From Naegleria gruberi (Eukaryota), in the NCBI GenBank assembly GCA_000004985.1, contig GG738861.1: a stretch of 64,000 bases of DNA. One strand, 5' to 3'. This document shows, piece after piece, positions 2,541 through 45,075 of the stretch (position 1 is its first letter; each line of letters starts with the position of its first letter). A model generated the notes under the pieces. The model made no database searches. It had not been told where the DNA came from and saw only the letters and a list, made by a program, of their open reading frames with translations. The position numbers and the translations under genes were made by a program.

Positions 2541-5233
2541 ATGAGAAAACACGGAGGCAACAATAAGAAGCCTTCAAACAACAACAATAAGAAGGGAGGA
2601 AATAACCCTGCTGGTAATCAAAAAGGTGGAGCCGGAAAGAAGTTTGGTGGCGCTGGAAAGAAGGCACCAAACCAACAAAAAAGAAAGGCAGAAGAAATTG
2701 TCAAGGATGATGATGTTCACTTGAGTGATTTGGATGAAGCCGATTTTGAATTTGCTGAAAGAATGAGTAGTCTTGCTGATTTGAAAGAGTAAGTTTTATA
2801 TATTTATTGATTGTTCTTATGGAATATTATTACAGGTCCGACTTTGATAAGAAGAAAAAGAAGAAACAAAAATTCAACAAACCAGATCCTTCGGAAATGA
2901 TTTCTGATGATGAAAAGGAACCAACAGTATCCGAAGATGAGGATGATTTGAAAGTAAAACAATTAGAAGAAACCTACTCTAAAGGAAGACTCTCAAAGAT
3001 TATGGAAAAGACTGAAAAAGTTTTGGAAGAAAATGAAAAGGAAGAATCACAAAAGAAGGTCAAATTAAAGCTTCCAATTAAGGGTGAGGATGGTACCATT
3101 AAAAAACAACTTCAAGTTATCCAAGAAAAGGAGGAAAAGAAGAAAGTTTTGACAAAGCAAGCAAAGAAGGATAAAAAGGAACAACAAAAGAGAAATGAGG
3201 AACAAGAAGAGGATGATATGGAGGATGAAATTGATGAAGAGGAAGTGTTTGATTCACTGAATACTAAAATTGAGGAGGAAACAGACGAAACCAAAAAGGA
3301 AAGAGAAGCCAAAAAGCAAGAAAAGATTAGACTTCAACAAATTTTGGAAGATCCTATTTTGAGAGAAAACAGAAGACAAAAATTAAGAACTGAAATTGGT
3401 GCATTGGCTTCCTCCATTTTAGAATTGCCAGATGTTAATGTGAGTATAGTTGATCATTATTGAAATATTTAACCATTTATCAAGTTAATCAAAATTTCTA
3501 GAATTTATGACTTGTGTATGGATGGAGATGTTTTTGTGAAAAAGATTGCAGTTCTCTCCATGTGTGCTCTTTTCAAGGATTTACTTCCTGATTACAAGAT
3601 TAACTTGGAAGTTGCTGCTGAAGGTACTCGTTTCTCAAAGGAAGTTAAGACAAGAAGAAACTTTGAAAGTAATATTTTGAAACACTATCAAAAATATGTA
3701 CTCTATGTAGAGAAACATGCCAAGACTCCTTCCTCTAAAATTCAATTGATTTGTGCCAAGAGTTTGTGTGAACTTTTGGTTAATAGACCATACTTTAACT
3801 TTACCAATGATATTATTAGAATTATTGTTCCACAATTGAACTCTAAGGTTGACAAAGTGAGAGAACTTGTTGCTCAAAGCATTTCTGAACTCTTTGCCAA
3901 CGATCCAACTAAGGGTGCAACCAGTTTAGATATTGTTGAGGAAATTGCTGCCGTAATTGTAAGGAAAAAGTATGAAGTTTCTCCAACCATGTTCGATGTT
4001 TTCTTGTCCCTCAAGTTAAAGACCATTTTGAAAGACAAGGTTTTACCTGAAAATATTGTGAATAGAAAGAAGAATAAGAGAAATAAGAAGAAGGCTAAGG
4101 ATCTTTCAGATGGTGAAGAATTGAGAAGAGATTTGAAGGAAGCTGAAGGTGCATCAAACTCTGAACAAAAGAAGAATCAAACTGATATTTTGAGAAATAT
4201 CATTGTTTGTTATGTCAGAGTTCTCAAACAACAACCTGAATCACCAATCGTTTTCAGTGCTTTGGCAGGTTTGGCCAAGTTCTCCCACTTGATGAATGTT
4301 GATATATTGTACTCTCTCTTGGATTATATGAAGGCCTTGTTGGAATCTGCTGATAATATCAATGAATTGGTTGCCTCACATTTAGATGAAAATGAATCAA
4401 AGGCTTTCAAACCAATTGAATTACCAATCAGAACTGTTTTACAAACCCTCATCACTACTGCCAGACTTTTGACAGGTATTGGTAGTGCCATCGATATTGA
4501 TCCAAAGGAATTCTATACTCAACTCTACAATGCCATTGATAGAGTTATTTCATTACCATATGAAGAAACCAACCTTAGATTGCTTTTGGACGCTCTTGTG
4601 TTGCTCTTATTGAAGCCAGCCAAATTGCCAATTACCAGAGTTGCTGCCTTTATCAAAAAGTTATGTTGCTACTGTTTCACCACATCCATCCATATTACAT
4701 TGGCCTTCTTGGAAATTATTAAGGAACTCTTCATAAAATATCCAAATGCCAAGCAAATGCTCAGTGGAGAAGAAAGTGGTATTGGTAACTATTCATTCGA
4801 TGAAACTGTTCCAGACAGCACAACTCCATTCTCTAGTCCATTGTTCGAATTGGGTCAAATTCAAACTCACTACCACCCACAACTCAAATACAGTTTAGAT
4901 GGTATCAGAAGTGTTTTGGGTCTCGTAACCAAATTCCAACAAACCAAAGCCAGAGACGAATTCAAACTCTTATCATGTGATGAATATCAAAATATTTTAA
5001 CAGAGTTCGATCCACAAAACGTCAAATTCAAACCACCAGTGCAAGCTCCAACCTCACATCCACTCCAAGAAAAATTAGAAAGACTCAGCGAAAAGAAGAA
5101 TAATCCAGAATTTAACAAGAAGAAGAAGCAAAAACTCCAAGAAAAGCAAATCTACGTTTCTCCATCACTTCTTCACATGAGATCAACTTTTGCCCTTGAT
5201 TGTCTCTCTAAATCATCGACATTACGTTTGTAA
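2541..5233 (+). CDS. NOC3L: Nucleolar complex protein 3 (NOC3/NOC3L); exons 2541..2788, 2836..3439 and 3485..5233
   Basis: AIVSLLAIFKDIIPSY-like motif (AVLSMCALFKDLLPDY) and a CBF/NOC3 helical domain align to NOC3L. Two short GT-AG introns (47 nt starting gtaagtttt, 45 nt starting gtgagtat) keep the phases consistent. The true ATG lies 15 nt downstream of the track's TTG start. Confidence 0.8.
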
Positions 5234-16379: not shown

Positions 16380-17626
16380 GGTATAGTGATTGTAAACTTG
16401 GCACAACAAGTTGTGAAAAGCTTCAGAAGTATTCCAACTTTCAACTATTGAAAATAATTGTTTGAATTTTCTCTATGGAGTGTGTACTTTCAAAATTTCA
16501 ATTAATATTGATGAGGGTGGACAAACGCGCTGAAGCAAATCGCTTATTAGCACAATTTCTGAATGCGGTCAAACTTTCGAATAAATTCTGAGGATCTAAG
16601 AGTGGGAATTTTTCAATTCAAAACACAAAAGAAAATGAGTAAAAAGTATAACATTGGTATTATTGGTGCAGGTAATATTGGATCTGCATTGGCCAAACAT
16701 TTGGTTGCTTTGGGTCATTCAGTTGTTATTGCAAATTCTCGTGGTCCTCAAACTTTGATCGAAGTTGAAAAGGAAACAGGAGCAAAGGCAGTTCAAATCT
16801 CTGAAACAATCAAAGACATTGTCATTGTAACCATTCCATTCAAAAATATTGAACAATTACCTAAAGATTTATTTAGAAATGCTCCAAAAGATTTGGTCAT
16901 TATTGATACTAATAATTATTATCCAGGATTTAGAGATGCTCCAATTGAATCGTTGGATAAACTTGAATTAACTCATAGTGAATGGGTTTCCAAAACAATT
17001 GGAAGATCAGTTGTTAAGGTTTTTAACAATATTTCAACCTACAGTTTGAAATTCAAGCCAACTCAAGATAAAAAACACAGAGTGGCTCTTCCAATTGCAG
17101 GAGATGATGAAAAGGCTAAGGCAATTGTCTTTGATTTGGTTGACCAAATTGGTTTTGATCCAGTTGATGCAGGTTCTTTGAAAGATTCTTGGAGACAACA
17201 TCCAGGAACTCCTTCCTATGGTTGTGACTATGGCAAGGAAGAATTGCAAGAAAAATTGAAACAAGCTGATCAATCTCTCTCACTTAAAAAACTTCAACAA
17301 GCTTTCGTTCTCTATGGACAAGCAGTTGAACAGTTCAATAAGGAGAAGGGAAAGGAGTGGACAATGGTAGAATATCTCTTACAAGGAGGAGAAGAGTTCA
17401 ATGATAAGTTTGTTGATATTCAACGTTCACTTTATCAATAAATATTCTATACGTGTTAGTGATACCAACATAAATTATCAATTCGTTGTTGCTTTTTACA
17501 CTTTTGCAAGTATATATAATTGAGAGAAATTCCAAGGCGAACCAACACACTTGGTGAAGCATAGTCATACATTGATTTTTGGTAGAGGACGTGTCGAATA
17601 CTTGATATGAGGTCAATATCATTTTT
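16380..17626. repeat. Inverted repeat copy A (~1.25 kb), partner at 41262..42440
   Basis: The reverse complement of 41262–42440 aligns base-for-base apart from scattered substitutions and one 58-bp indel (extra sequence about 17489–17546 in copy A). It spans ~190 bp upstream, the whole F420-reductase-like ORF, and ~185 bp downstream. Confidence 0.8.
16635..17441 (+). CDS. NADPH-dependent F420 reductase-like / COG2085 dinucleotide-binding oxidoreductase, copy 1 (intronless, prokaryote-type)
   Basis: N-terminal Rossmann motif IGIIGAGNIGSALAKHL, VVIDTNN and DAG motifs match the PF03807 F420_oxidored family. It differs from copy 2 at 4–5 aa. Confidence 0.8.
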   Translation: MSKKYNIGIIGAGNIGSALAKHLVALGHSVVIANSRGPQTLIEVEKETGAKAVQISETIKDIVIVTIPFKNIEQLPKDLFRNAPKDLVIIDTNNYYPGFRDAPIESLDKLELTHSEWVSKTIGRSVVKVFNNISTYSLKFKPTQDKKHRVALPIAGDDEKAKAIVFDLVDQIGFDPVDAGSLKDSWRQHPGTPSYGCDYGKEELQEKLKQADQSLSLKKLQQAFVLYGQAVEQFNKEKGKEWTMVEYLLQGGEEFNDKFVDIQRSLYQ

Positions 17627-31545: not shown

Positions 31546-34500
31546 CTAATTTATTATAACATCAGGAAGTCCGTAACAAACTGTTGCTGATCCAATAAGG
31601 GAAGGTAATTTACATGTTTCTCTTGCCTCAGTAAGAACTTCACAAATTGATTGGTTTTGATTATTGACAAGCCACTTCTCTAACATGTACTCTGTGAGTC
31701 TATCAATGTCCTTATCTGTTACATCCCAAAGATTAGCAATAACAAATGGTGAACCAGCCAACAAGAAACTCAAAATGGTGCCATTTGGTTCATAATTACC
31801 ATACTCTTTCAATCTTCCACTACTACATCCCATCAATAGTATTGGACAACATTTCAATAGTCTCCTTATCTTGTGTGGATTGTAGTATCTTTCTCCAGTT
31901 CCGTGGCCTATATAAATCATCAAATCACTATCAGATAATACTTGATAGAGGGTATCCTCAGAGGGAGGTGCATTTCCAATAATACCTTTCCAATTAGTGT
32001 GACTTTCAAAGAATGGTTTGAATCTTTCCTCTGAAGAAGCCAAATCTCCACTTGGATTCAAAAGATAATAGACATTATCTCGTTTGATTTCTCCATTCAC
32101 CTCTGTCATTCTATTCAAATGATAGTAGAGAAGTAAAAGGCTTGGCATTCTGGAGGTTGGATAACCTCTAATTGTTGGCATTGACTCGAGTGGAAGTTGT
32201 TGAATCAGCTTATCCAAACAAAATACTAAATGTTTTCTCTTAATCTTTTGCTTTTCAATCCTGGTACAGTGTCTGAATAATAGATTGTCCTTTTTCTTGT
32301 CACTCTCTGAGAAGGCCTGTAGGAAGGTGGTATAGAAAATATTTTGAATTGAAGACACAATCGAAGCATCACAATCAACATTGCCCAAAATGAAATACTT
32401 GATACATTCCTCCACATCTGACTCTTCCTTGAAGGAAGAGAAGGATTTCAATAATAATTTAGCCATTCTAGGATCAAATGTAAAGTCAACCATTCCTCCT
32501 ACATCTTTCAATTTTTCAATCAGAAATTCAGTTTTAGCTTCCAAAATTTCATCAAACTCACTCATTAAACGAGGGACAAGTAATAACTTGATTGGTCCGA
32601 AGAGTAGGTCCTCAATATATTTGACCAAGGTAGCAAGCTTTTCATCGAGATCCTTTCTAGTTTTCCACCAAGAGGATTTGTCAGTAATGGTGAAAGACTC
32701 CTTACTTAGGATTTGCAGGTGGTCAAAGGAGAGTAAAACCTTATGGAGAATGTTACTGTCATTTCCAAACAATGCCTGATAGGAACGCCAATTCGAGTAT
32801 GAGCTTAAACTACTGGAAGTGAGCTGAGATCCTGAATCAGAAGATTTTTGATACTGTAATTGAGTTTGTTTGATGGCAGACTCACTGAATAACCTGTTAA
32901 GTTTGGAGAATGACTCTGTATTTCTAACAAGTGGAATTGGCATGACAATACAATCATCATCACCTCCACTATGATTATTCATAACTGTCACTACCAGATT
33001 TGAATAATCTGTAATAAATATTATTTAGTAAATTAAAAAAAAAGAATAAATATACATACCATCGGTAATGCAAATGTTACAAACACTAATATTGGAAGGC
33101 AAAATCGAAATTAAATTATCCATAAAACTCTTTTTTGTTGTCAGATCCTTCAAGTCTAACATGAATGTAAATTGCAACTCATTCGTTATTGACAATCTTC
33201 TCATCATTTTTTCCACTCCCTTATTATCTGTCATGTCATCCATACTTCCAATACTTTGCATTCCATTATTATTCATTGAATTGAAATAGTCCAATAAATC
33301 TTGTAAGGTATGCTTCAATCTAATACCCATAGACATGGAGCTTAGGAATGCATAGTCCCTCTCTTCACTATTATTTGTAAAGGTTGTCTCGGAGGTAGTG
33401 TTCATGTGAGCCAAAATACGCTTCTTCAACGGTATTGGAACATCATTCCAAGCCAAACCAAAGTTAGATCTAAACTCATAGTTTAACTTGTTATTTCCAC
33501 TGAGTGCATTACAATAATACTTGACCCATAGTGAATCTTCCTCAGTCTTTTCATTGCTTGCATTCAAATCAACCACCTTCGACAGTCTCTCAAGTATTTG
33601 TTTGGCTCCTTGTTCATCATTCCTTTTAAGTAGGAGTATCACTTTTTGTAAATCGATACCCATTTCATTCTTATTTGAAATGCTATTGAGGAGTGTCTCT
33701 GCCTCTTCATCCTTATTTTGCATCAAGAGCATCGTACTCTCCAAGAGTAAGAATTCATGAGCAAACTTGTTAATAATATTATGTGTAGCACTGGTGTTAT
33801 CACTTAAAAGTGCTTTTACAATCTGTACAATATATTCTACATCTTCAAAATCGTGTCTATTCAACTTCAGTCTAGCAAGATGGTATAAATATGATAGAGT
33901 AAAACTCAAACATTTTACGAGAATTGAAAATCTCAAACCCTGTCTAATACAAGTCTCACATGAAGAAAAGTTGCCTCTCACTTCATGTATTCTAATCATT
34001 TGCTGATAATGAAGTAAAGAAATACACGAATGATCAAAGTGGTGAGCCAATGAGAAGGAAGTTTTCAAATCACTCTTGGTAGCCTTCTTTGTTATTGACT
34101 CTATGACTTTAGCTTCAGACCTCTTTTCCTTTTCCAACATACCTCTCATTTTCATACTCTTAATGAGATGTTGATAGGCCACTTGGACGTCATACTTCAT
34201 TGCTGCCTTGCAATTAATGTAGCTATATTTAGATATTGAGGCAGCATCCTCAGTTGATAATTCCAAAATCTTACCAGTTATTTCATTAGATAGTTGCATA
34301 AAGCTGTCATCCTCGGGCTTGCAACAAAATCTCCTCCGATATTCAAATTCTTGGAAGGAATCCAATTTTTCTCTCTTGATAAACTGTTTATCGTTCATAT
34401 GTAAAGCATGATCATTGAGAATGGAAAGTATTGTTTGGTATTGTTTCAAATAGTCGGCATCCACATTAGAGGGAATAGGCTTTGAGAAAATCCTTCTAAA

Positions 34501-35565
34501 ATTGAGAATGACATCATCCATTCCATAAACCATACAGAATCTAATTACAGTTCCAATCAGATAGAAAATGTAAATAATATCCCTCTTGTTAAGATGTGCA
34601 AACAAATCAGTAACATCCAGATTAAATCTCAAATTTCTTGTAAGTGATTCTATTGATTGTAAATGACCATTGAAAACAGTTTTCAGCACCTTGCTAAATA
34701 TTTCCTTATTTTTCATATTGAGAGTTTCATTACTATTATTCACTGAGAGCAAGTCTTCGATATTCGAAGGATTCCTCTCCAAATATCTCATACATGAAAC
34801 AAATGTTGTAATGATATTGGTAATGAAAGGAATGATAGTTTGGGTGAGAGTATCGTTACCATTGACTATGGTGGTACCTAGCATTGAACTCACCTCTTCC
34901 AATTCTTTCAAAACTTGAGAATCGGAAACAGGTTGAGTTCCAGAGTATGAGTGTAAAAAGAGAAGAATTCTCTTGACCTTGTAGAGAATAATATCTGATG
35001 AATTGGGTGATACTTTCTCTAAATATTCTCCCAGTCGTTGTAATACTAGAATATTTTCCTTGAAGAGTATATCCTGACAATTAGTATCCTCTATTGCTTT
35101 TAATTCCAATTTGAGAAAAGGTATTTGATGAACTTCATAGGCCTCCTCTTTGATGGCTTCTACTATTGTAAAAATTGGTTGTTCTTGTGGAGATTTGTGT
35201 GCTTTTGTTTTGCAGTTAATATAACTCTGGAAAAGAAATAAAAGTTTAGCCTCGTTGAAAGTTCCCGTCGAAACATTTTGCCGAATTAACTTGATGAAAC
35301 CCTTCTGAATTTCCATAAAATCGGCATTTGGTAGTTTGTATTTCGATCTCAAAAGTAGTTCGAATGTTTTCAGCAAGTGATCGGAGGCTACTTTAAATTT
35401 ATCAGCAAATTTCTCAGGTATTGGAGTGCTGAGTACTTTTTGAAAGAGTTGTTTACCTTCCTCCAAACTCTTGACAGCCTGCTCGAAATTGTTTGCTTGG
35501 TAGGCAGAGAGACCTTTGTTATACTCTTCAATGCCCTTCTTATAGAGGTCGATGAGTGCTTGCAT
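31546..35565 (-). CDS. ESPL1: Separase (peptidase C50, ESP1/ESPL1); exons 35565..33060 and 33008..31546
   Basis: C-terminal caspase-like domain with catalytic His (MIYIGHGTGERYY) and Cys (LLMGCSSGRL), plus a long helical N-terminal region. A single 51-nt GTATGT..AG intron joins the two ORF-track frames in phase 1, giving ~1322 aa. Confidence 0.8.
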
Positions 35566-41261: not shown

Positions 41262-42440
41262 AAAAATGATATTGACCTCATATCGAGTATTCAACACGTA
41301 CTCTACCAAAAATCAATATATGACTATGCTTCACCAAGCAACAACGAATTGACAATTTATGTTGTTGGTATCACTAACACGTATAGAATATTTATTGATA
41401 AAGTGAACGTTGAATATCAACAAACTTATCATTAAACTCTTCTCCTCCTTGTAAGAGATATTCTACCATTGTCCACTCCTTGCCCTTCTCCTTATTAAAT
41501 TGTTCAACTGCTTGTCCATAGAGAACGAAAGCTTGTTGAAGTTTTTTAAGTGAGAGAGATTGATCAGCTTGTTTCAATTTCTCTTGCAATTCTTCCTTAC
41601 CATAGTCACAGCCATAGGAAGGAGTTCCTGGATGTTGTCTCCAGGAATCTTTCAAAGAACCTGCATCAACTGGATCAAAACCAATTTGTTCAACCAAATC
41701 AAAGACAATTGCCTTAGCCTTTTCATCATCTCCTGCAATTGGAAGAGCCACTCTGTGTTTTTTATCTTTGCTTGGCTTGAATTTCAAACTATAGGTTGAA
41801 ATATTGTTAAAAACCTTAACAACTGATCTTCCAATTGTTTTGGAAACCCATTCACTATGAGTTAATTCAAGTTTATCCAACGATTCAATTGGAGCATCTC
41901 TAAATCCTGGATAATAATTATTAGTATCAATAATGACCAAATCTTTTGGAGCATTTCTAAATAAATCCTTTGGTAATTGTTCAATATTTTTGAATGGAAT
42001 GGTTACAATGACAATGTCTTTGATTGTTTCAGAGATTTGAACTGCCTTTGCTCCTGTTTCCTTTTCAACATCAATCAAAGTTTGAGGACCACGAGAATTT
42101 GCAATGACAACTGAATGACCCAAAGCAACCAAATGTTTGGCCAATGCAGATCCAATATTACCTGCTCCAATAATACCAATGTTATACTTTTTGCTCATTT
42201 TCTTTTTTGTTTTGAATTGAAAAATTCCCACTCTCTGATCCTCAGAATTTATTCGAAAGTTTGACCGCATTCAGAAATTGTGCTTTTAAGCGATTTGCAT
42301 AAAGCACGTTTGTCCACCCTCATCAATATTAATTGAAATTTTGAAAGTACTCACTCTCCATAGAGAAAATTCAAACAATTATTTTCAATATTTGAAAGTT
42401 TGAATACTTCTGAAGATTTTCACAACTTGTTGTGCCAAGT
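41262..42440. repeat. Inverted repeat copy B (~1.18 kb), partner at 16380..17626
   Basis: See copy A. It lacks the 58-bp insertion, and its outer edges diverge at the same positions as in copy A. Confidence 0.8.
41392..42198 (-). CDS. NADPH-dependent F420 reductase-like / COG2085 oxidoreductase, copy 2
   Basis: About 98% protein identity to copy 1 (substitutions L→Q, Q→K, E→D, T/Q→S/K, D→E). Confidence 0.8.
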   Translation of the reverse strand: MSKKYNIGIIGAGNIGSALAKHLVALGHSVVIANSRGPQTLIDVEKETGAKAVQISETIKDIVIVTIPFKNIEQLPKDLFRNAPKDLVIIDTNNYYPGFRDAPIESLDKLELTHSEWVSKTIGRSVVKVFNNISTYSLKFKPSKDKKHRVALPIAGDDEKAKAIVFDLVEQIGFDPVDAGSLKDSWRQHPGTPSYGCDYGKEELQEKLKQADQSLSLKKLQQAFVLYGQAVEQFNKEKGKEWTMVEYLLQGGEEFNDKFVDIQRSLYQ

Positions 42441-43114: not shown

Positions 43115-43570
43115 CTAATAACGGTATGCTCCTCCATTAGCCACATTTCCATACGAAGGATAACCATAATTAGAACTGTAAGCCACTCCACCTGGTGTTT
43201 GAACACTTTGATAATTACTTCCAGGTTGATAATAATAAGGTGACGATCCATAATATCCTCCACCATATGGATATCCATAGGAACCATAAGCATTACCACC
43301 ATACATGGAAGGTTGTCTGTATCCACTTGATTGAGCCACAAATGGCACAAACATCATGACTTGAATCTTATCCTTATAGGCGAGCGTATCTGAATTGTAC
43401 TTATCGAGTGTACCACCTTGTGTTAGATAGGAGGCTCCACTTGGGCCAATGGCTCCACCAGAGGCTGCACCTCCTCCAGCAACAACTGGATATTGAGCAT
43501 TTAGATGGTGCTGGAATGAAGAAAAGAGGAAAATTAGAAGGAGAAGAAATGAGAATTTGGTTAGTAACAT
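43115..43570 (-). CDS. Secreted Gly/Tyr-rich low-complexity protein
   Basis: Signal peptide (MLLTKFSFLLLLIFLFSSFQ) followed by GGGAASGGAIG and YGYPYGGGYYGSSPYYY tracts. Confidence 0.55.
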   Translation of the reverse strand: MLLTKFSFLLLLIFLFSSFQHHLNAQYPVVAGGGAASGGAIGPSGASYLTQGGTLDKYNSDTLAYKDKIQVMMFVPFVAQSSGYRQPSMYGGNAYGSYGYPYGGGYYGSSPYYYQPGSNYQSVQTPGGVAYSSNYGYPSYGNVANGGAYRY

Positions 43571-44088: not shown

Positions 44089-45075
44089 ATGTCTCAACCA
44101 TCTACATTCCACCCACAACTCACCGACACTGTATTGATGGTGCGCCCAGTTGATTTTGCATTCAACGAACAAACAGCTGTCGATAATGAATTCCAAAATA
44201 GAATTGATGACAAGACACCAAACCAAATTAGAGATGCTGCTATTGAAGAATTTGATAAGAGTGTTTCTGCTCTTCGGGAAGCTGGTGTTCAAGTTTTAGT
44301 TTTGGAGGGATCCAAGAAGGAGAATGTTACTAAATGTCCAGATGCTGTTTTCCCAAATAATTGGTTCTCATCATCGGCCGATGGTACCGTTTTTACTTAT
44401 CCAATGTTTACTCCAAACCGTCGTGCTGAAGTTGAAAGATTGGATGACGTTTTAGCCTTGTTAGATGAAGCTAAATTAAAGGTGAAACGTATTGTCAAGA
44501 TGCACGAAGAACCATCATCAAAGGCTTTGGAAGGAACTGGTTGTATGGTATTTGATCATTTGAATGGTGTTGTTTATGCAAACATTTCGGAAAGATGTAA
44601 TGCTGAACAATTGGATGCTTTTGTTAAAAGCACTGAAGGATCAAAGACTAGAGCTGTTACTTTTAAAACAAAGAGTTCAAATGGAAAGGGATTCTATCAT
44701 ACCAATGTCATGTTGAGTATTGGTGAAGAATTTGCCATTGTTTGTTCTGCTGTCATTGTTGAAGAAGATAGAGAAAGAGTCATGTCTGAATTGAGAAAGG
44801 CTAGAAAGCTCGTTATTGACTTGACTGTTGAACAAACTGAAAAGATGATGTGTGCCAATGTTATTCAACTTGCTACCAAGACTGGTGGAAAGGTTATTGT
44901 CATGTCTGATTCTGCTTATAATGGTTTCACACAAGAACAAAGAACAATTTTGGAAGCTGAACATGGTAAGGCTGTTGTTTTCCCAATCAGTAAGATTATT
45001 GAAACCATTGGTGGAGGTAGTGCCAGATGTATGATTGCTGAAGTTTTTAATCCAAGTTTGACACAAGTCCAATAA
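44089..45075 (+). CDS. Amidinotransferase-superfamily hydrolase (CtlX / DDAH / arginine-deiminase-like), intronless and bacterial-like
   Basis: 328 aa ending in the superfamily's C-terminal catalytic-Cys motif GGGSARCMIAE. It has no introns, unlike most neighbouring genes. Confidence 0.75.
   Translation: MSQPSTFHPQLTDTVLMVRPVDFAFNEQTAVDNEFQNRIDDKTPNQIRDAAIEEFDKSVSALREAGVQVLVLEGSKKENVTKCPDAVFPNNWFSSSADGTVFTYPMFTPNRRAEVERLDDVLALLDEAKLKVKRIVKMHEEPSSKALEGTGCMVFDHLNGVVYANISERCNAEQLDAFVKSTEGSKTRAVTFKTKSSNGKGFYHTNVMLSIGEEFAIVCSAVIVEEDRERVMSELRKARKLVIDLTVEQTEKMMCANVIQLATKTGGKVIVMSDSAYNGFTQEQRTILEAEHGKAVVFPISKIIETIGGGSARCMIAEVFNPSLTQVQ

What the first reader, a model, noticed from the sequence alone, without database searches (positions are those of the whole stretch)
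44089..45075. Bacterial-like amidinotransferase-superfamily hydrolase (CtlX/DDAH/ADI-like), intronless
The C-terminal GGGSARCM catalytic-Cys motif and the overall length fit the guanidino-group-modifying enzyme superfamily. The closest architecture I recognise is bacterial CtlX-type citrulline/arginine-utilisation hydrolases rather than the animal DDAH sequence. It is intronless among intron-bearing neighbours, making it a second horizontal-transfer candidate in this window.
Basis: partly seen in the sequence, partly recalled or inferred. Interest (0 to 1): 0.55.

Follow-up and report, generated by a model that had tools for sequence, protein, structure and literature searches.

The report
CtlX-type hydrolase gene in Naegleria
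This is an ordinary, functional gene of the amoeba Naegleria gruberi for a bacterial-type enzyme that probably splits citrulline into ornithine; other amoeboid protists share it, so any transfer from bacteria was ancient, not recent.

Summary
The ORF at 44089-45075 (+) is real: 328 aa, 100% identical to N. gruberi XP_002678495.1, so the window is N. gruberi. It matches Pfam PF19420 over its full length (E 4e-81). It matches the NCBIfam CtlX model end to end but scores below its cut-off (309.5 vs 334 bits). It has the C-terminal GGGSARCM cysteine and the two Asp-to-Asn changes (FPNN, HTN) that separate CtlX from arginine deiminase and DDAH. The predicted fold (pLDDT 91) is closest to the arginine dihydrolases ArgZ/AgrE and to DDAH-1, AstB and ADI. 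The family assignment is therefore right, and the most likely reaction is citrulline to ornithine + CO2 + NH3. That reaction is unproven even in bacteria.

The transfer claim holds only weakly. GC3 and codon usage match the host. Most nearby genes are also intronless. Orthologues exist in N. fowleri and N. lovaniensis (dN/dS about 0.1). Homologues occur in Acrasis kona (two), Percolomonas, Lapot and unidentified eukaryotic contigs. Two indels unite Naegleria with these eukaryotes against 131 other sequences, but distance trees cannot resolve the branching. An ancient bacterial origin of a eukaryote-rich subclade is plausible; a recent Naegleria-specific transfer is not.

The parts
44089..45075 (+). 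Complete intronless coding sequence (328 codons plus TAA stop) of the CtlX-like hydrolase, identical to N. gruberi XP_002678495.1 / NAEGRDRAFT_66127
   Evidence: ORF list; 100% identity hit P0001 with accessions; Pfam PF19420 full length
44350..44361 (+). FPNN motif (Phe88-Pro-Asn90-Asn91). Asn replaces the first guanidino-binding Asp of ADI/DDAH (FTRD in ADI)
   Evidence: Sequence read directly; N90 and N91 invariant in alignment A1; motif defined in PMC9007349
44530..44532 (+). Glu148 in the LEGTG motif, the inferred acidic partner of the catalytic His
   Evidence: Invariant column E148 in A1; the role is inferred from superfamily knowledge and not tested geometrically
44593..44664 (+). Segment Arg169 to Phe192, which carries a 2-3 residue insertion shared with the eukaryotic homologues
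   Evidence: Length 23 in Naegleria 4/4 and EukB 24/24, 21-25 in EukA, 24 in P0075; 20-21 in 131/131 other sequences
44698..44706 (+). His204-Thr-Asn206 (HTN). This is the catalytic His, and Asn replaces the second guanidino-binding Asp (HLD in ADI)
   Evidence: Sequence; invariant H204, T205 and N206; motif from PMC9007349
44965..45003 (+). Segment Gly293 to Glu305 (FPISKIIE), which carries a one-residue insertion shared with the eukaryotic homologues
   Evidence: 12 residues in Naegleria 4/4, EukA 28/28, EukB 23/24 and P0075; 11 residues in 131/131 other sequences. The same insertion occurs alone in 13 distant family representatives
45010..45033 (+). GGGSARCM motif with the nucleophilic Cys314 (45028-45030)
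   Evidence: Sequence; invariant G308-G310, S311, R313, C314 and M315

Best explanation
The ORF is a functional, vertically maintained nuclear gene of Naegleria gruberi. It encodes a cytosolic hydrolase of about 36 kDa from the CtlX / PF19420 branch of the guanidino-group-modifying (pentein-fold) superfamily.

Inferred mechanism: Cys314, in GGGSARCM, attacks the ureido carbon of L-citrulline. His204 acts as general acid/base and Glu148 orients it. Asn90/Asn91 and Asn206 replace the two aspartates that bind the charged guanidinium in arginine deiminase and DDAH, and they accommodate the neutral ureido group. Ammonia leaves, and hydrolysis of the thio-carbamoyl intermediate gives ornithine plus CO2. 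This is the same chemistry as the second half-reaction of the arginine dihydrolases ArgZ/AgrE and AstB. The net reaction is citrulline + H2O to ornithine + CO2 + NH3, which feeds ornithine into polyamine or proline/glutamate metabolism in a bacterivorous amoeba.

Evolution: the gene belongs to a eukaryote-rich subclade of an otherwise bacterial family. That subclade holds Naegleria spp., Acrasis, Percolomonas, Lapot and unidentified protists. It most likely descends from one old bacterium-to-eukaryote transfer, with Bacteroidota of the Flexibacter type as the nearest sampled bacteria. Since then it has been inherited within Heterolobosea and fully adapted to the host genome.

Shown: the ORF, family, motifs, fold, host-like composition, orthologues and purifying selection. 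Inferred: the substrate, the catalytic roles and the direction and age of the transfer.
For: Family and fold:
- PF19420 full length, E 4e-81.
- CtlX NF046062 aligned 2-299/299, 309.5 bits.
- AF2 model pLDDT 91, pTM 0.90.
- Foldseek top hits are ArgZ 6juy/6jv1 and AgrE 6lrf, then DDAH-1, AstB and ADI, all at probability 1.0.

Active site:
- FPNN, HTN, E148 and C314 are invariant in 20 homologues and present in nearly all 123 first hits.
- These are the motifs Price et al. use to argue for an amide (citrulline) substrate (PMC9007349).
- A close bacterial homologue in Marinomonas lies directly downstream of an arginine/ornithine succinyltransferase gene, the CtlX context.

Host gene, not a contaminant:
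- Flanked by Utp11, CAF1B/HIR1, mitochondrial L22, ALG10 and EF-hand genes.
- GC, GC3 and codon usage fall within the host range.

Conservation:
- N. lovaniensis 80% identity; N. fowleri orthologue in the same 90% cluster.
- dN/dS about 0.10 against N. lovaniensis.
- RNase P p30 lies about 10 kb away in both Naegleria species.

Eukaryotic relatives:
- Acrasis kona has two copies, and the one examined at its locus lies among TOR, Arf and arrestin genes.
- Contigs L001, L005 and L006 carry CH, ATG101, EF-hand, Got1 and F-box genes.
- Percolomonas, Lapot and Adineta also have homologues.

Shared origin and bacterial affinity:
- Two indels unite Naegleria with these eukaryotes against 131/131 other sequences.
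- In the NJ tree, the eukaryote-rich cluster plus the Flexibacter group has bootstrap 52%.
- Eukaryotic groups are as similar to the Flexibacter group (51-54%) as bacterial groups are to each other (44-54%, one pair 61%), so they sit inside bacterial diversity.
- The family is large and spread over many bacterial phyla.
Against: - The substrate is unproven. Price et al. themselves say biochemistry is still needed for CtlX, and the ctlX mutant phenotypes also appeared on ornithine.
- The protein and all sampled eukaryotic homologues score below the NCBIfam equivalog cut-off, 268-330 against 334.
- No ornithine- or arginine-pathway gene lies beside it in Naegleria.
- Distance phylogeny does not place the Naegleria clade. 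All-eukaryote monophyly appears in only 6% of 300 bootstraps, and the sister group varies: the P0060 group 24%, other bacteria 23%, EukB 15%.
- Clade-profile scores are equal for the Acrasis-containing clade (428 bits) and the Flexibacter-type group (425 bits).
- The one-residue insertion also occurs alone in 13 of 146 more distant representatives, so it can arise more than once.
- Bacterial sequences P0146 and P0155 fall inside the eukaryote-rich cluster in the NJ tree.
- Active-site geometry in the model was not inspected, because no coordinates were available.
Confidence: 0.6

Rival explanations
1. Recent, Naegleria-specific transfer. A bacterial ctlX gene was taken up by N. gruberi or its immediate ancestor from prey bacteria and still looks foreign.
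For: The family is overwhelmingly bacterial: 584 of 600 candidate stretches in bacterial genome contigs were confirmed as relatives, across many phyla. The gene is intronless. Identity to Flexibacter-type sequences (51-55%) equals or exceeds identity to other eukaryotes. NJ bootstraps often put bacterial or unassigned sequences as sister.
Against: Orthologues exist in N. lovaniensis and N. fowleri. Homologues exist in Acrasis, Percolomonas and other eukaryotes. Two indels are shared with eukaryotes only, in the 188-sequence set. GC3 and codon usage are fully host-like, and bacterial homologues fit far worse. No bacterial sequence exceeds about 55% identity, so no donor is identifiable. Being intronless is the norm locally.
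Confidence: 0.07
2. Vertical inheritance from the last eukaryotic common ancestor. The eukaryotic subclade is ancestral and was lost from most lineages, so no transfer into eukaryotes occurred, or the transfer ran from eukaryotes to some bacteria.
For: Homologues occur in at least two supergroups (Discoba and Rhizaria), in a rotifer and in unidentified protists. Indel signatures are shared. Pfam seeded and named the family as eukaryotic.
Against: Named eukaryotic occurrences are very few and patchy. Bacterial occurrences span Gammaproteobacteria, Bacteroidota, Desulfobacterota, Planctomycetota, Acidobacteriota, Cyanobacteriota and more. Eukaryotic groups are no more distant from Flexibacter-type sequences than bacterial groups are from each other, so there is no deep eukaryote/bacteria split. 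The rotifer and the P0259 sequences fall elsewhere in the tree. All genomic copies seen are intronless.
Confidence: 0.13
3. Same fold and chemistry but a different substrate. The enzyme hydrolyses another ureido or amide compound (for example homocitrulline, N-acetylcitrulline or N-carbamoylputrescine). Alternatively, as the Pfam name suggests, it acts on a guanidino compound such as methylarginine or arginine.
For: The eukaryotic clade scores below the CtlX equivalog cut-off. There is no pathway linkage in Naegleria. CtlX activity itself has never been shown biochemically. The Pfam label is DDAH_eukar. DDAH-1 and ADI are close fold matches.
Against: Both guanidinium-binding Asp residues are Asn, and invariantly so, which argues against arginine or methylarginine. 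All residues invariant in bacterial CtlX relatives are retained, and the alignment to the CtlX model is end to end. The nearest solved folds are dihydrolases that do hydrolyse the citrulline ureido group (PDB titles).
Confidence: 0.2
4. Assembly contaminant or bacterial DNA mis-assembled into the scaffold.
For: The family is of bacterial type.
Against: The gene is embedded between eukaryotic genes on a 507-kb scaffold. Flanks are AT-rich and eukaryote-like. Codon usage is host-like. Orthologues occur in two other independently sequenced Naegleria genomes. An identical gene with the same downstream ORFs appears on an independent metagenome contig.
Confidence: 0.01

Closest known systems
CtlX, putative citrullinase of Pseudomonas simiae/fluorescens and Phaeobacter inhibens (NCBIfam NF046062; Price et al. 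2022, PMC9007349)
   Same: Same Pfam family (PF19420). End-to-end alignment to the CtlX model. Same length class (about 300-330 aa). Same FPNN and HTN Asn-for-Asp motifs and the same C-terminal GGGSxRCM cysteine.
   Different: Scores 309.5 bits, below the 334-bit equivalog cut-off. It is eukaryotic, monocistronic and not next to ocd or aruFG. It carries two small insertions shared with other eukaryotic members. No genetic or biochemical data exist for it.
ArgZ / AgrE arginine dihydrolase N-terminal domain of cyanobacteria (PDB 6juy, 6jv1, 6lrf)
   Same: Best structural matches: Foldseek E 1e-13, TM 0.68-0.81 on the target. Same pentein fold and Cys nucleophile. From my own knowledge of these enzymes, their second half-reaction hydrolyses a citrulline-type ureido intermediate to ornithine.
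   Different: Only 15-17% sequence identity, undetectable by sequence or profile search. ArgZ/AgrE start from arginine and carry extra C-terminal domains.
Animal and Pseudomonas DDAH (dimethylarginine dimethylaminohydrolase; PDB 2ci3, 6szq, 1h70)
   Same: Same fold and the same Cys-His catalytic arrangement. The Pfam label of PF19420 alludes to DDAH.
   Different: 13-17% identity. The guanidino-binding aspartates are replaced by Asn. There is no sequence-level match. It is not a member of the animal DDAH clade.
Arginine deiminase (ADI; PDB 1rxx, 2aaf, 4bof)
   Same: Same superfamily. The motif positions correspond: FTRD to FPNN, HLD to HTN, and the C-terminal Cys.
   Different: ADI is about 410 aa with an extra helical domain. 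It binds the charged guanidinium through two Asp residues, which are absent here.
Ctu citrullinase (citrulline ureidase) of Francisella tularensis
   Same: Same proposed net reaction, citrulline to ornithine + CO2 + NH3.
   Different: Not homologous: it belongs to the carbon-nitrogen hydrolase family PF00795 (stated in PMC9007349).

Membership tests
Guanidino-group-modifying enzyme superfamily (pentein fold, Pfam clan CL0197) | Five-fold alpha/beta propeller (pentein) fold | tested here: met
   AF2 model pLDDT 91. Foldseek probability 1.0 to ArgZ, AgrE, DDAH-1, AstB, ADI and amidinotransferases.
Guanidino-group-modifying enzyme superfamily (pentein fold, Pfam clan CL0197) | C-terminal nucleophilic Cys plus catalytic His and an acidic partner | tested here: met
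   C314 (GGGSARCM), H204 and E148 are invariant in alignment A1. Their spatial arrangement in the model could not be inspected.
CtlX / PF19420 family | Full-length match to Pfam PF19420 above the gathering score | tested here: met
   272.8 bits against a cut-off of 23, profile positions 1-291/291.
CtlX / PF19420 family | Score at or above the NCBIfam NF046062 equivalog cut-off (334 bits) | tested here: not met
   309.5 bits. Other eukaryotic members score 268-330. Bacterial relatives straddle the cut-off at 322-347.
CtlX / PF19420 family | Asn in place of the two substrate-binding Asp residues (FTRD to FPNN, HLD to HTN) | tested here: met
   FPNN at residues 88-91 and HTN at 204-206. The criterion comes from PMC9007349.
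CtlX / PF19420 family | Genomic linkage to ornithine cyclodeaminase or ornithine/arginine succinyltransferase | tested here: not met
   Neighbours within about 8 kb on either side (36.6-53.3 kb) are a CAF1B/HIR1-type WD40 protein, Utp11, a HUN-domain protein, an NpdG-like oxidoreductase, unknown proteins, an EF-hand protein, mitochondrial L22 and ALG10. Operon-type linkage is not expected in a eukaryote. A Marinomonas homologue does sit next to AstA/AruG.
CtlX / PF19420 family | Required for citrulline utilisation / citrulline-hydrolysing activity | not testable with these tools
   This needs an enzyme assay or genetics. It is not yet shown biochemically even for bacterial CtlX.
Animal-type DDAH, arginine deiminase, or GATM amidinotransferase | Sequence-level membership and guanidinium-binding Asp pair | tested here: not met
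   No PDB hit by phmmer or by profile. Only 10-17% identity in structural alignments. The Asp residues are replaced by Asn.
Recently horizontally transferred gene | Composition or codon usage deviating from the host | tested here: not met
   GC 0.379 and GC3 0.271 fall within the range of 30 window ORFs. Codon-usage fit ranks 27 of 30; bacterial homologues score -1.26 to -1.97 against -0.82 for this gene.
Recently horizontally transferred gene | Absent from sister species and related lineages | tested here: not met
   Present in N. lovaniensis, N. fowleri, Acrasis kona (two copies) and Percolomonas cosmopolitus.
Horizontally transferred gene of any age | Phylogenetic nesting of the eukaryotic sequences inside bacterial diversity | tested here: inconclusive
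   The identity matrix and NJ topology place the eukaryotes among bacterial groups, next to Flexibacter-type Bacteroidota (bootstrap 52% for the joint cluster). Deep nodes have bootstrap below 25%. No ML software was available.

The most novel reading that the evidence does not exclude
A distinct eukaryotic clade of CtlX-like ureidohydrolases, marked by two insertions, gives free-living heteroloboseans and other protists a one-step citrulline-to-ornithine route. Members include Naegleria (with the pathogen N. fowleri), Acrasis, Percolomonas and Lapot. This route has not been described in eukaryotic arginine metabolism and has no homologue of this family among solved human proteins.
Probability: 0.35. 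Interest if true: 0.5.

Novelty: new member of a known kind. Interest (0 to 1): 0.3.

Why it matters
If the enzyme is a citrullinase, eukaryotic arginine and citrulline metabolism gains a branch now known only from bacterial genetics. N. fowleri would then have a metabolic enzyme with no close human counterpart. The locus is also a cautionary case for transfer screens in intron-poor protists. A bacterial-looking, intronless gene here turns out to be old, host-adapted and shared by several eukaryotic lineages. It also shows that the Pfam name 'DDAH_eukar' is misleading, because the family is mostly bacterial and lacks the guanidino-binding aspartates. The gene is already in the databases as a predicted protein, and its family is known, so the advance is modest.

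Tried and rejected
1. Identifying the organism behind the second eukaryotic clade (contigs L005 and L006). I searched with a concatenate of its ATG101, AlkB-like and DAP3-like proteins. It returned only unnamed environmental hits, so the lineage stays unidentified.

2. Foldseek against AFDB50, to get organism names. The library was not available.

3. Reading the ArgZ and AgrE structure papers for residue roles. They are not held.

4. Profile search of PDB sequences with alignment A1. There was no true hit, so no family member has a solved structure.

5. Literature on this gene. Nothing specific was found for Naegleria plus amidinotransferase, or in the Acrasis genome supplements.

6. The upstream neighbour at 41392-42270 as a possible pyrroline-5-carboxylate reductase, which would have linked it to ornithine and proline. 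It is NpdG/FNO/STEAP-like instead, so I rejected this.

7. NJ bootstrap phylogeny on 188 and 213 sequences. It cannot place the Naegleria clade.

8. Clade-specific HMM scoring. It ties between the Acrasis clade and the Flexibacter-type group.

9. The N-terminal 'HPxxxDTVLMVRP' extension as a eukaryotic marker. I rejected it because Marinomonas and P0042 have it too.

10. Looking up the N. gruberi scaffold annotation for intron status. The tool returned only a metagenome contig, so I used the N. lovaniensis annotation instead.

Full report
**Observation**

The window holds one uninterrupted ATG-to-TAA ORF at 44089-45075 on the + strand, 328 aa. AT-rich non-coding DNA flanks it. Its product is 100% identical to the N. 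gruberi predicted protein XP_002678495.1 / NAEGRDRAFT_66127 / D2VB85, so the window is Naegleria gruberi nuclear DNA at about 33% GC.

**Family**

- Pfam PF19420 ('DDAH_eukar') matches over the full profile (1-291/291) at E 4.4e-81.
- NCBIfam's equivalog model for the citrulline utilisation hydrolase CtlX (NF046062) aligns end to end (2-299/299) at 309.5 bits. This is below its 334-bit cut-off.
- Other eukaryotic homologues score 268-330 bits. Close bacterial ones straddle the cut-off at 322-347.
- Neither the single sequence nor a 20-sequence profile detects any solved structure by sequence.
- An AlphaFold2 model is confident (pLDDT 91, pTM 0.90). Foldseek places it in the pentein fold. The best matches are the cyanobacterial arginine dihydrolases ArgZ and AgrE, followed by DDAH-1, AstB, NnhA, ADI and amidinotransferases, at 10-17% identity.

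**Active site and likely reaction**

Price et al. (PMC9007349) defined CtlX genetically, by fitness on citrulline in Pseudomonas and Phaeobacter. They noted that it differs from guanidino-acting relatives because the two substrate-binding aspartates are asparagines (FTRD to FPNN, HLD to HTN), which fits an amide substrate. The Naegleria protein has FPNN at 88-91 and HTN at 204-206. It also has the Cys314 nucleophile and Glu148. All of these are invariant in an alignment of 20 homologues and present in almost all of the first 123 hits.

I therefore infer the following. Cys314 attacks the ureido carbon of citrulline. His204 acts as acid/base, with Glu148 orienting it. Ammonia is lost and the thio-carbamoyl intermediate is hydrolysed. 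The products are ornithine, CO2 and NH3. From my own knowledge, this is the second half-reaction of the dihydrolases ArgZ/AgrE and AstB, which are the nearest solved folds.

This reaction is unproven. The authors of the CtlX paper state that biochemistry is still needed. One close bacterial homologue, in Marinomonas agarivorans, sits directly downstream of an AstA/AruG succinyltransferase gene, which is the published CtlX context. Four other bacterial loci showed no informative context. N. gruberi is reported to have ornithine transcarbamylase (PMC5052871), so citrulline and ornithine are part of its metabolism. The neighbours in the window are unrelated housekeeping genes.

**Is it a foreign gene?**

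Composition says no.
- GC is 0.379 and GC3 is 0.271, both inside the range of 30 long ORFs in the window.
- Its synonymous-codon fit to the pooled window usage ranks 27 of 30, among the best adapted. Bacterial homologues fit far worse.

Intron absence is not informative.
- ATG-ORFs of at least 100 aa cover 70% of the window.
- The nearest neighbours are single ORFs with full-length domain coverage.
- In the annotated N. lovaniensis locus, the orthologue and 6 of 9 complete neighbours are intronless.
- Some genes farther away in the window are split: separase, RPC82 and NOC3.

The gene is conserved and constrained.
- N. lovaniensis is 80% identical. The N. fowleri orthologue falls in the same 90% cluster.
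- dN/dS against N. lovaniensis is about 0.10. dS is about 1.7 and near saturation, so the ratio is approximate.
- Synteny is loose: RNase P p30 lies about 10 kb away in both species.

**Wider distribution**

The family is large and mainly bacterial.
- There are 941 clusters at 50% identity with E below 1e-30.
- It occurs in Gammaproteobacteria (Kangiella, Vibrio, Marinomonas), Bacteroidota, Desulfobacterota, Planctomycetota, Acidobacteriota, Cyanobacteriota and others. The best identity in the bacterial genome collection is 49%. The Flexibacter-type sequences found in the protein search reach 51-53%.

The sequences most similar to Naegleria include many eukaryotic ones.
- Acrasis kona has two paralogues. 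The one I examined lies among TOR, Arf, RGS and arrestin genes.
- Environmental contigs carry clearly eukaryotic neighbours such as CH domain, ATG101, EF-hand, Got1, F-box and SANTA.
- Named eukaryotes include Percolomonas cosmopolitus (Heterolobosea), Lapot gusevi (Rhizaria), the bdelloid rotifer Adineta steineri and further EukProt entries.

**Phylogeny**

Neighbour-joining trees with 200-300 bootstraps gave these results.
- The Naegleria clade is recovered at 100%.
- 'EukA', 28 sequences including both Acrasis paralogues, is recovered at 91-96%.
- 'EukB', 24 sequences including two eukaryotic contigs, is recovered at 100%.
- A joint cluster of all these plus Percolomonas, Lapot and the Flexibacter-type Bacteroidota has 52% support.
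- The branching inside that cluster is unresolved.
- Clade-specific HMMs score the Naegleria protein equally against EukA (428 bits) and the Flexibacter-type group (425 bits). Scores are lower against EukB, Kangiella and the Desulfobacterota/Acanthopleuribacter group.

Two indels are more informative.
- Segment Gly293-Glu305 has 12 residues in Naegleria 4/4, EukA 28/28, EukB 23/24 and P0075. It has 11 residues in all 131 other sequences.
- Segment Arg169-Phe192 has 23 residues in Naegleria and EukB, 21-25 in EukA and 24 in P0075. It has 20-21 residues in all 131 others.
- In a broader sample of 50%-identity representatives, the first insertion alone recurs in 13 distant sequences, so it can arise more than once.
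- Among the new representatives in that sample, seven carry both insertions. Three of these trace to EukProt or named eukaryotes (P0191, Percolomonas, Adineta). The other four are unnamed environmental sequences.

The identity matrix shows eukaryotic groups no farther from Flexibacter-type sequences than bacterial groups are from one another. The eukaryotic sequences therefore lie inside bacterial diversity rather than across a deep split.

**Conclusion on evolution**

The best reading is one old bacterium-to-eukaryote acquisition, followed by vertical descent within Heterolobosea and possibly spread among eukaryotes. The gene is now fully domesticated. A recent Naegleria-specific transfer is contradicted by the orthologues, the indels and the composition. 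Descent from the last eukaryotic common ancestor with massive loss is possible but less parsimonious. A proper ML analysis is needed, and no ML software was available.

**Verdict**

The horizontal-transfer flag is only weakly justified, and the evidence offered for it (intronlessness) does not discriminate. This is a new eukaryotic member of a known, mostly bacterial, family that is still uncharacterised biochemically. Interest is modest.

Noticed in passing
window 16535-17470 (+) and 41363-42298 (-): There are two inverted copies, 97% identical over 936 nt, of an intronless 292-aa NpdG/FNO/STEAP-like NADP oxidoreductase (PF03807). The proteins are 98% identical. The copies lie 23.9 kb apart, and the repeat covers essentially the gene alone with no flanks.
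   Followed up: partly
window 31546-35565 (-): The separase gene (Peptidase_C50) is split into two ORFs, 33025-35565 and 31546-32982. A short intron between them has a TACTAA branch-point-like element and a TTACAG acceptor. RPC82 (395-1069 / 1222-2355) and NOC3 (2819-3463 / 3518-5233) also look split. Introns therefore exist in the window, but not in the target's nearest neighbours.
   Followed up: partly
L002 8001-9092 (Acrasis kona JAOPGA020001235.1): The Acrasis kona homologue KAL0486433.1 is annotated 'sulfite reductase' and its paralogue KAL0485486.1 'ykgA'. Both hit only PF19420, so the 'sulfite reductase' name looks like a mis-annotation.
   Followed up: partly
Pfam PF19420, seen across loci L007-L087: The Pfam name 'DDAH_eukar' is misleading. 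Most members sampled are bacterial and spread over many phyla. They carry Asn where DDAH and ADI have the guanidino-binding Asp residues. NCBI even propagates the name 'N,N dimethylarginine dimethylhydrolase, eukaryotic' to a bacterium (Sulfidibacter corallicola).
   Followed up: partly
L088 (ENA ERZ929261, contig k127_156353, 2920 bp): A metagenome contig encodes a protein 100% identical to the window's. It also has the same downstream 139-aa and 115-aa ORFs. N. gruberi DNA is therefore present in a public metagenome assembly.
   Followed up: no
proteins P0042 (524 aa), P0222 (727 aa), P0223 (648 aa), P0250, P0305: Some family members are fusions of the CtlX-like domain with N-terminal extensions. 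P0042 carries PF01121 (dephospho-CoA kinase). These were not examined further.
   Followed up: no
window 43115-43570 (-): The upstream neighbour is a 151-aa Gly/Tyr/Ser-rich protein with a hydrophobic signal-like N-terminus (MLLTKFSFLLLLIFLFSS...). It has no Pfam or NCBIfam match.
   Followed up: no
L090/L091 (JGI 3300034364 / 3300034306), proteins P0006, P0007, P0011: The 'bacterial-looking' sequences most similar to Naegleria (53-55%) sit on monocistronic contigs of about 1.1 kb. These have an ACCATGG start context and a 3' flank of more than 100 nt without an ORF. They may be eukaryotic transcripts even though they lack the two insertions. If so, the nearest certain bacterial relatives are only the Flexibacter-type sequences at 51-53%.
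   Followed up: partly
L092 4354-5286 (Logan SRR20140227), proteins P0146/P0155: A 35% GC bacterial contig has a dense same-strand gene array (purD, an acyltransferase and a DJ-1-like gene, with a ferritin gene on the opposite strand). It carries a homologue that clusters inside the eukaryote-rich group in NJ trees but lacks both insertions. It could mark the donor lineage or a back-transfer.
   Followed up: no
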